Assembly (NCBI RefSeq): GCF_053078305.1
Contig: NZ_CP166879.1
Strand: one strand, 5' to 3'
Length of the DNA: 64,000 bases
In this document: one piece after another, positions 63,001 through 64,000 of the stretch
How the letters are laid out: every line of letters starts with the position of its first letter
Position numbering within the stretch: the stretch's first letter is position 1
Program-made: the position numbers

Positions 63001-64000
63001 CCCAGTGGTTGGTCATCGCACCGCGACCAAATGTTGGAGCAAGACTTGCTACCGTTGGTCCGTGTCAGACGCGCGCCTGGTTGTCTACCGCCAGCATCCC
63101 GAGGGAGCGGGCAAATTTCTGGGTCAGCATCCCGGTTTCGTTGCTGGCACCGGAGGCACACAGCATACCGGTAGAAAGCCAACGGTTTACCGTTACACCC
63201 TGCTCGTTCTTTTCAATAAAGTTAGCGTCACGGTCAGCTTTCATCAGCTTAGCAATACGGGAGAATGCTTCTTCCCAGCTAATGCGCTGCCATTTGTCAG
63301 AACCTGGCGCACGATATTCCGGGTAGCGCAGACGGTTTTCGCTGTTGACGTAATCCAGCAAACCGGCCCCTTTCGGGCACAGCGCACCACGGCTTACCGG
63401 ATGATCCGGGTCACCTTCAATGTGATAAATCGCTTCTCTGGCGTTTTTTGCGCCATCACCCAGGCTATACATCAATAGCCCGCAACCTACGGAACAGTAT
63501 GTGCAGGTGTTACGGATCTCTTTAGCGCGTAATAATTTGTAGTTTCGCGCCTGAGCCAGTGCTTGCTTCGGGGCAAAGCCCAATGCCGCTACTGTTGTTC
63601 CAGCCATACCGCCCGCGCAGATTTTAAAAAATTGTCTGCGACTGACGTCCATTGCTTTCCTCTTTTTTCAGGGGTATTACTGCGCGAGGAAACTAACAGT
63701 AAAATTCTGAATCTTTTTGCGCGAAATCAAAAAGAACACGTGTTTGCCACAAAATAATCCGCCTGCGCAAATTGACCTACCTCAATAGCGGTAGAAAAAC
63801 GCACCACTGCCTGACAGGCCAGTTAAAAAAATGCTATAAAATTCAGCTTAATTTTTAACGGCAAGAGAGACAAAACAGCGAGCATGACACGACAAAAAGC
63901 AACGCTCATAGGGCTAATAGCGATCGTCCTGTGGAGCACGATGGTAGGATTGATTCGCGGTGTCAGCGAGGGGCTCGGCCCGGTCAGCGGCGCAGCTGCT

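What the first reader, a model, noticed from the sequence alone, without database searches (positions are those of the whole stretch)
63653..63883. fdnG-yddG divergent region with NarL 7-2-7-like and FNR-like sites
TACCTCA-AT-AGCGGTA (63778-63793) and TTGCG-CGAA-ATCAA (63717-63730) are positioned about -100 and -42 relative to a presumed fdnG start site, matching the expected nitrate/anaerobic activation architecture. The FNR left half-site is imperfect.
Basis: partly seen in the sequence, partly recalled or inferred. Interest (0 to 1): 0.3.

Follow-up and report, generated by a model that had tools for sequence, protein, structure and literature searches.

The report
Known fdnG nitrate/anaerobic promoter region

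Summary
Window 63653-63883 is the 231-bp yddG/fdnG divergent intergenic region of E. coli. It differs by 3 bases from K-12 MG1655, none in the sites. Both motifs sit exactly where stated. Consensus matching alone does not exceed chance in the window. However, PWMs built without fdnG sites rank the FNR site 3rd and the NarL 7-2-7 2nd of about 64,000 positions. With +1 at window 63681, five published elements map exactly: FNR at -42.5 and NarL heptamers at -77, -100, -109 and -124. Across 55 fdnG loci from about 15 enterobacterial genera, the FNR site TTGATnnnnCGCAA is present in all, imperfect half-site included. A 7-2-7 lies 61-62 bp upstream of it in 53 of 56 sequences (the 55 loci plus the window). 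Two published ChIP studies show FNR at this region in vivo. Interest is low.

The parts
63650..63652 (-). fdnG start codon. The coding sequence runs leftwards to 60605, with an in-frame UGA (selenocysteine) at 63065-63067.
   Evidence: ORF list. RefSeq annotation of identical E. coli DNA as fdnG. SECIS_3 match at 63012-63070 on the - strand, 84.3 bits.
63681..63681 (-). fdnG transcription start (+1), inferred. It is an A and gives a 29-nt 5' UTR.
   Evidence: This is the only position that places all five published elements (-42.5, -77, -100, -109, -124) on their curated sequences. It was not mapped here.
63690..63698 (-). Probable extended -10 of the fdnG promoter, TGtTAGTTT (-17 to -9).
   Evidence: The block gcTGtTAGTTT is conserved at fixed spacing from the FNR site across genera, at 1.38 bits per column. 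Its assignment as the -10 is an inference.
63717..63730 (.). FNR site, TTGATTTCGCGCAA in fdnG orientation, centred at -42.5 (class II position). The promoter-proximal half-site CGCAA is imperfect.
   Evidence: and 33 (PWM rank 3 of 63,987). TTGATnnnnCGCAA is found in all 55 related loci. The published position is -42.5. FNR ChIP peaks are reported at yddG/fdnG.
63747..63760 (.). Conserved block of unknown role at about -79 to -66 (GAyTATTwwG). It overlaps the published -77 NarL heptamer.
   Evidence: 1.14 bits per column, higher than the 7-2-7 itself. It is not NarL-like by PWM outside Escherichia.
63755..63761 (+). NarL heptamer at -77 (TAATCCG; listed as CGGATTA).
   Evidence: Curated list; position. 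The PWM score is weak at 4.2 bits, and it is not conserved as a heptamer across genera.
63772..63785 (.). Second FNR-like site, TTGAGGTAGGTCAA in fdnG orientation, centred at -97.5. It overlaps the -100 NarL heptamer.
   Evidence: It is the best FNR PWM hit in the whole window. Myers et al. 2013 Table S6 lists it as the predicted FNR site at the yddG/fdnG ChIP-seq peak. It is present only in Escherichia.
63778..63793 (.). NarL/NarP 7-2-7 site, TACCGCT-AT-TGAGGTA in fdnG orientation, with heptamers at -109 and -100 and centre at -104.5.
   Evidence: curated 7-2-7' pair; PWM rank 2 of 63,985. A 7-2-7 lies 61-62 bp upstream of the FNR centre in 53 of 56 related sequences, against 0.0007 per background position. 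Genus-averaged NarL PWM peaks occur only at -109 and -100.
63802..63808 (+). NarL heptamer at -124 (CACCACT; listed as AGTGGTG).
   Evidence: Curated list; position. The PWM score is weak at 1.8 bits and the heptamer is not conserved across genera.
63832..63840 (+). Predicted extended -10 of the divergent yddG promoter, TGcTATAAA. The predicted yddG +1 is near 63847.
   Evidence: TGCTATAAA(T) is conserved about 50 bp upstream of the yddG ATG in nearly all genera, and lies a fixed 107-110 bp from the FNR centre. Prediction only; the simple promoter scan did not report it.
63884..63886 (+). yddG start codon. The gene runs off the end of the window.
   Evidence: The yddG-fdnG divergent arrangement is kept in 53 of 55 related loci.

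Best explanation
The region is the E. coli fdnGHI (formate dehydrogenase-N) control region. Under anaerobiosis an FNR dimer binds the imperfect site TTGATTTCGCGCAA, centred at -42.5. From that class II position it recruits RNA polymerase to a weak promoter that has an extended -10 (TGtTAGTTT) and no recognisable -35. With nitrate, phosphorylated NarL binds as a dimer to the 7-2-7 inverted heptamer pair centred at -104.5. That is 62 bp, about six helical turns, upstream of FNR and therefore on the same face of the DNA. Weaker flanking heptamers at -77 and -124 assist, and NarL strongly boosts FNR-dependent initiation.

What I showed here: the sequence identity to K-12, the exact placement of the sites, their high PWM ranks, and the cross-genus conservation of the sites and their 62-bp spacing. 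What comes from the literature: the FNR and NarL site positions, FNR occupancy in vivo, and dependence on nitrate and NarL. What is inferred: the activation contacts, and the idea that the conserved weak FNR half-site keeps the promoter dependent on NarL.
For: - Identity: fdnG and yddG are annotated on 100%-identical E. coli DNA, and the region is present in 5,413 of 5,426 complete genomes at 95% identity or more. There are 3 differences from K-12, all outside the sites.
- Published site positions and curated heptamer sequences all map to one +1 at 63681.
- PWM ranks are 3rd (FNR) and 2nd (7-2-7) of about 64,000 positions, using matrices that exclude the fdnG sites.
- Phylogenetic footprint across 55 loci: the FNR site is found in all, and a 7-2-7 with up to 3 mismatches lies at 61-62 bp in 53 of 56 sequences, against a background rate of 0.0007 per position. 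The 7-2-7 sequence itself differs between genera while staying palindromic, with 4.0 against 1.7 complementary pairs of 7.
- Genus-averaged NarL PWM exceeds 1.5 bits only at -109 and -100, in the expected opposite orientations.
- The two loci without yddG upstream still carry a 7-2-7 upstream of the FNR site, 39-40 bp away, about two helical turns closer.
Against: - I could not read any primary paper with the mapped transcription start or the footprints, so +1 rests on secondary numbering.
- The probable -10 (TAGTTT at -14 to -9) lies one or two bases further from +1 than is typical.
- The published ChIP-seq summit (about 1545300-1545309 in U00096.2) is nearer the -97.5 FNR-like site (centre 1545298.5) than the -42.5 site (centre 1545353.5).
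- The genome-wide PWM threshold of Myers et al. retained only the -97.5 site.
- The FNR-site conservation figure is partly inflated, because that site was used to anchor the alignment.
- The related loci are phylogenetically non-independent.
Confidence: 0.93

Rival explanations
1. The two motifs are chance matches to short degenerate consensus sequences and have no regulatory role.
For: Consensus matching with up to 2 mismatches gives no excess over shuffled sequence in the window.
Against: PWM ranks are 2nd and 3rd of about 64,000 positions. Position is strictly conserved across about 15 genera despite sequence turnover in the 7-2-7. The sites are curated as experimentally studied, and FNR ChIP peaks are reported.
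Confidence: 0.02
2. In E. coli the FNR-like site at -97.5 (63772-63785) is also occupied by FNR, or is the main site occupied when nitrate is absent. Because it overlaps the -100 NarL heptamer, FNR and NarL would compete there, adding a layer of control on top of the -42.5 site.
For: It is the best FNR PWM hit in the window, at 15.6 against 12.0 bits. It is the only site at this locus that passes the genome-wide threshold of Myers et al., and it is flagged as lying at a ChIP-seq peak. The peak summit lies 2-11 bp from its centre, against 45-54 bp from the -42.5 centre.
Against: It is found only in Escherichia, whereas the -42.5 site is found in every genus. It may be a by-product of the NarL heptamer TGAGGTA followed by GGTCAA. 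ChIP summit positions are approximate, and two adjacent sites would merge into one peak. From memory and unverified: early mutational work found the upstream Fnr-like sequence dispensable for anaerobic induction.
Confidence: 0.2
3. The NarL 7-2-7 is a shared bidirectional element that also controls the divergent yddG promoter. It would sit at about -61.5, a class I activator position, from the predicted yddG start.
For: The yddG extended -10 TGCTATAAA is conserved and lies a fixed 107-110 bp from the FNR centre. The 7-2-7 is therefore also at a fixed distance from the yddG promoter in nearly all genera. The yddG-fdnG pairing is kept in 53 of 55 loci. NarL can activate from -67.5 and -77.5 at the ogt promoter.
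Against: The yddG start is not mapped, so the promoter is only predicted. No paper linking yddG to NarL or nitrate was found. The rigid spacing could simply reflect a compact intergenic region. Loci without yddG still keep a 7-2-7 for fdnG.
Confidence: 0.2

Closest known systems
E. coli K-12 fdnG operon control region (Stewart laboratory; curated in RegulonDB/EcoCyc)
   Same: It is the same locus. 228 of 231 intergenic bases are identical. It has the same FNR site at -42.5 and the same four NarL heptamers at -77, -100, -109 and -124.
   Different: There are three single-base differences from MG1655, between the sites, at about -89, -62 and -61. There is no functional difference that I can see.
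narG operon control region (FNR class II site plus upstream NarL sites plus IHF)
   Same: An FNR site near -41.5 is combined with NarL acting from far upstream, giving nitrate induction under anaerobiosis.
   Different: narG lacks a 7-2-7 site and needs IHF-mediated bending and NarL sites at about -89 and -195. fdnG uses a 7-2-7 at -104.5, and no IHF site is reported here.
NarL/NarP 7-2-7 activator sites at napF, nirB, nrfA, yeaR and ogt
   Same: All have inverted TACYYMT heptamers with a 2-bp spacer, bound by a NarL (or NarP) dimer.
   Different: Those sites lie at about -44.5 to -77.5. The fdnG site lies further upstream at -104.5 and works together with a class II FNR site.

Membership tests
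E. coli fdnG control region | Sequence identity with the K-12 yddG-fdnG intergenic region, flanked by fdnG and yddG | tested here: met
   228/231 identical to MG1655. 100% identical in many E. coli genomes annotated with fdnG and yddG. A SECIS element lies downstream of the in-frame UGA.
FNR-activated class II promoter | Inverted repeat resembling TTGAT-N4-ATCAA | tested here: met
   TTGATTTCGCGCAA matches 8 of 10 consensus positions. Its PWM rank is 3 of 63,987 with a matrix that excludes fdnG.
FNR-activated class II promoter | Site centred near -41.5 relative to a mapped transcription start | tested here: inconclusive
   The centre is -42.5 if +1 is 63681. That +1 reproduces all the published coordinates.
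FNR-activated class II promoter | FNR occupancy in vivo and FNR-dependent anaerobic expression | not testable with these tools
   Literature only. [quoted passage not shown]
NarL/NarP 7-2-7 binding site | Two TACYYMT heptamers in inverted orientation separated by exactly 2 bp | tested here: met
   TACCGCT-AT-TGAGGTA has 2 mismatches to TACYYMTNNAKRRGTA. Its PWM rank is 2 of 63,985. It is curated as a 7-2-7' pair.
NarL/NarP 7-2-7 binding site | Positional conservation in orthologous promoters | tested here: met
   A 7-2-7 with up to 3 mismatches lies 61-62 bp upstream of the FNR centre in 53 of 56 sequences. Genus-averaged PWM peaks occur only at -109 and -100.
NarL/NarP 7-2-7 binding site | Protection by phospho-NarL in vitro and nitrate induction that depends on the heptamers | not testable with these tools
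   This is known only from citations to Li et al. 1994, Darwin et al. 1996 and Wang & Gunsalus 2003. The full texts are not held.

The most novel reading that the evidence does not exclude
The 150-bp core of the yddG-fdnG intergenic region is a rigid, indel-free bidirectional module conserved across Enterobacteriaceae. In it, the NarL 7-2-7 sits at -104.5 of fdnG and, at the same time, at about -61.5 of a conserved extended -10 yddG promoter. NarL (and in Escherichia the -97.5 FNR-like site) would then also control the aromatic amino acid exporter YddG. A further strongly conserved block at -79 to -66 would bind an as yet unassigned factor or the polymerase alpha C-terminal domain.
Probability: 0.2. 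Interest if true: 0.35.

Novelty: already known. Interest (0 to 1): 0.08.

Why it matters
The finding is a correct re-identification of a textbook case of combinatorial control, with FNR sensing oxygen and NarL sensing nitrate. Its main value is as a positive control for the scan. The cross-genus comparison adds modest new detail: the 62-bp FNR-NarL spacing and the imperfect FNR half-site are conserved across about 15 genera. It also points to three small open questions in a supposedly solved promoter: the role of the -97.5 FNR-like site, the conserved -79 to -66 block, and possible NarL control of yddG.

Tried and rejected
- Consensus mismatch searches for both motifs gave counts no higher than shuffled sequence, so they cannot by themselves support the finding. 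I replaced them with PWM ranking.
- The simple sigma-70 promoter and terminator scan found nothing in 63500-64000. It misses both the activator-dependent fdnG promoter and the yddG extended -10 with TATAAA.
- I tried to read the primary papers (Wang & Gunsalus 2003; Li & Stewart 1992; Lin & Stewart 2010). None is held, and one search term was rejected by the tool.
- A search for a paper mentioning a -97.5 site at fdnG found nothing.
- Within-E. coli comparison is uninformative for footprinting, because the region is 95-100% identical in all genomes.
- The Rfam search found no RNA element in the intergenic region. It returned only the fdnG SECIS and a sub-threshold mir-129 chance hit.
- The repeat search found only weak A/T-rich repeats.
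- I considered whether the conserved -79 to -66 block is a NarL heptamer. Outside Escherichia it does not score as one. I also considered by eye a yddG -10, an IHF site and an ArcA site, and none was convincing.
- Searches for literature linking yddG to NarL or nitrate found nothing relevant.

Full report
**What is there.** The last 350 bases of the window hold the 5' end of fdnG on the - strand (ATG at 63652-63650). They also hold the 5' end of yddG on the + strand (ATG at 63884-63886).

A 601-bp stretch around the region is 100% identical to many complete E. coli genomes, where the flanking genes are annotated as fdnG and yddG. It is present at 95% identity or more in 5,413 of 5,426 genomes. 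Against K-12 MG1655 the intergenic region shows three single-base differences, none inside the proposed sites. An Rfam SECIS_3 match (84 bits) sits just downstream of the in-frame UGA of fdnG and confirms the gene's identity.

**Checking the observation.** TACCTCAATAGCGGTA is at 63778-63793 and TTGCGCGAAATCAA is at 63717-63730, as stated.

Counting mismatches to the consensus is not informative. With up to two mismatches, the 7-2-7 pattern occurs 4 times in the window against 3.8 expected. The FNR pattern occurs 49 times against 41 expected.

I therefore built weight matrices that contain no fdnG site:
- The FNR matrix came from 31 ChIP-chip motifs in Grainger et al. (PMC1802558).
- The NarL heptamer matrix came from the 68 non-fdnG heptamers of the curated list in PMC2718512 supplement 4.

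With these matrices the FNR site ranks 3rd of 63,987 positions and the 7-2-7 ranks 2nd of 63,985. So the motifs are real and unusually good for this window, although not unique.

**Agreement with published work.** The primary papers were not available to me, so I relied on two open papers that carry their content.
- PMC3349551, citing Darwin, Li & Stewart 1996, states that E. coli fdnG has an FNR site at -42.5 and NarL heptamers at -77, -100, -109 and -124.
- The curated list in PMC2718512 gives the fdnG (b1474) heptamers as CGGATTA, TGAGGTA, TACCGCT and AGTGGTG. It marks TGAGGTA/TACCGCT as a 7-2-7' pair.

I placed +1 at window 63681, an A that lies 29 nt upstream of the ATG. All four heptamer centres then fall exactly on -77, -100, -109 and -124, and the FNR site centre falls on -42.5. 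The start itself was not mapped here.

Two independent studies report FNR bound at yddG/fdnG in vivo. Myers et al. classify fdnG as bound by FNR but expressed only with nitrate and NarL, with NarL and NarP as known co-regulators.

**Independent evidence from related genomes.** A degenerate DNA pattern for the FdnG signal peptide (MDVSRRQFFKICAGG) recovered 55 loci. All of them encode an FdnG-like N-terminus. They come from Citrobacter, Enterobacter, Salmonella, Kosakonia, Leclercia, Silvania, Phytobacter, Trabulsiella, Yokenella, Pluralibacter, Pseudenterobacter, Shimwellia and Escherichia.

- Every locus has TTGATnnnnCGCAA upstream, so the 'imperfect' half-site is conserved rather than degenerate.
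- In 53 of 56 sequences (the 55 loci plus the window), a 7-2-7 with at most three mismatches lies 61-62 bp upstream of the FNR centre. The background frequency is 0.0007 per position.
- The distance from the FNR site to the ATG varies from 67 to 216 bp, yet the FNR-to-7-2-7 spacing holds.
- The 7-2-7 sequence differs between genera, for example TACTCCCTTATGGGTA, TAATCAAAAAGGGGTA and TACCGCTATTGAGGTA. It stays palindromic, with 4.0 against 1.7 complementary pairs of 7.
- A genus-averaged NarL matrix score exceeds 1.5 bits at only two positions, -109 and -100, in opposite orientations.
- The -77 and -124 heptamers are not conserved as heptamers.
- A block gcTGtTAGTTT at -19 to -9 is conserved and is probably an extended -10.

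There are two caveats. The FNR site was used to anchor the alignment, so its own conservation score is partly built in. The loci are also related by descent, so the counts are not independent trials.

Two loci are informative exceptions, Shimwellia (L008) and one metagenome-assembled genome (L034). They lack yddG upstream. They carry their 7-2-7 39-40 bp upstream of the FNR centre instead of 62 bp. The difference is about two helical turns, so the site stays on the same face of the DNA. This ties the 7-2-7 to fdnG rather than to yddG.

**Mechanism.** The best-supported model is the established one. FNR binds at -42.5 as a class II activator of a promoter with a poor -35. Phospho-NarL binds as a dimer at the 7-2-7 centred at -104.5, with help from weaker flanking heptamers, and co-activates in nitrate.

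The 62-bp spacing (about 5.9 turns) and its conservation fit a face-of-helix requirement. How NarL acts from -104.5 is inferred, not shown; it may contact the alpha C-terminal domain or stabilise FNR and polymerase. I also infer that the conserved weak FNR half-site keeps the promoter dependent on NarL. From memory and not verified here: NarP also binds the 7-2-7 but activates poorly.

First, the best FNR-like sequence in the entire window is not the -42.5 site. It is TTGAGGTAGGTCAA (63772-63785), centred at -97.5 and overlapping the -100 NarL heptamer.
- Myers et al. list exactly this sequence (1545292 in U00096.2) as the predicted FNR site under the yddG/fdnG ChIP-seq peak.
- The -42.5 site did not pass their threshold.
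- The reported summit (1545300-1545309) is closer to this site than to the -42.5 site.
- It occurs only in Escherichia, so it is either a lineage-specific addition or a by-product of the heptamer sequence.

Second, a block at -79 to -66 (GAyTATTwwG) is more conserved than the 7-2-7 and has no assigned factor.

Third, the yddG side carries a conserved extended -10, TGCTATAAA (63832-63840), at a fixed 107-110 bp from the FNR centre. This places the 7-2-7 at about -61.5 from a predicted yddG start. I found no literature on nitrate or NarL control of yddG.

**Verdict.** The feature is already known and thoroughly studied, so interest is low. The residual novelty lies only in the side observations above.

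Noticed in passing
window 63772-63785: A second FNR-like site, TTGACCTACCTCAA, is centred at -97.5 of fdnG and overlaps the -100 NarL heptamer. It is the top FNR PWM hit in the whole window. Myers et al. 2013 list this site under the ChIP-seq peak. It is present only in Escherichia.
   Followed up: partly
window 63747-63760 (fdnG -79 to -66): The block GAyTATTwwG is conserved across about 15 genera, more strongly than the NarL 7-2-7. Outside Escherichia it does not score as a NarL heptamer, and its binding partner is unknown.
   Followed up: partly
window 63832-63840: A conserved extended -10 (TGCTATAAA) is predicted for yddG, at a fixed distance from the FNR and NarL sites. It puts the NarL 7-2-7 at about -61.5 of a predicted yddG start, so NarL control of yddG is possible. 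No literature on this was found.
   Followed up: partly
L008 (Shimwellia pseudoproteus) and L034 (Enterobacteriaceae MAG), upstream of fdnG: These two loci lack yddG upstream and have their 7-2-7 39-40 bp upstream of the FNR centre instead of 62 bp. That is about two helical turns closer, giving an alternative architecture on the same DNA face.
   Followed up: partly
window 63665-63680: The sequence TTTTCAGGGGTATTAC (GTAATacccctGAAAA in fdnG orientation), in the fdnG 5' UTR, is reported as a predicted CpxR box with gel-shift support in PMC9600279. A perfect NarL-consensus heptamer, TACCCCT, lies inside it at +5 to +11 and is not conserved across genera.
   Followed up: partly
window 63012-63070 (- strand): An Rfam SECIS_3 element (84.3 bits) lies immediately downstream of the in-frame UGA of fdnG (63065-63067). 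This explains why the ORF list splits fdnG into 195-aa and 803-aa pieces.
   Followed up: yes
window 38780-38795: TACTTATACTGGAGTA is the best-scoring 7-2-7-like sequence in the window, with 1 mismatch to the consensus. It lies at the 3' end of a 931-aa ORF (36015-38810). It is probably a chance match, and its context was not examined.
   Followed up: no
L002, L009, L012, L015, L017 and other Citrobacter loci; L028 and L033 (Salmonella); L039 (Phytobacter); L021 (Enterobacter wuhouensis): The distance from the FNR site to the fdnG ATG is 119-216 bp in these loci, against about 70 bp in E. coli. They therefore have insertions in the 5' UTR, whose nature was not examined.
   Followed up: no
L051 (Leclercia adecarboxylata NCTC13032), fdnG codons about 26 onwards: The FdnG reading frame is broken shortly after the signal peptide, with stops in frame. 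This may be a frameshift, a pseudogene or an assembly error.
   Followed up: no
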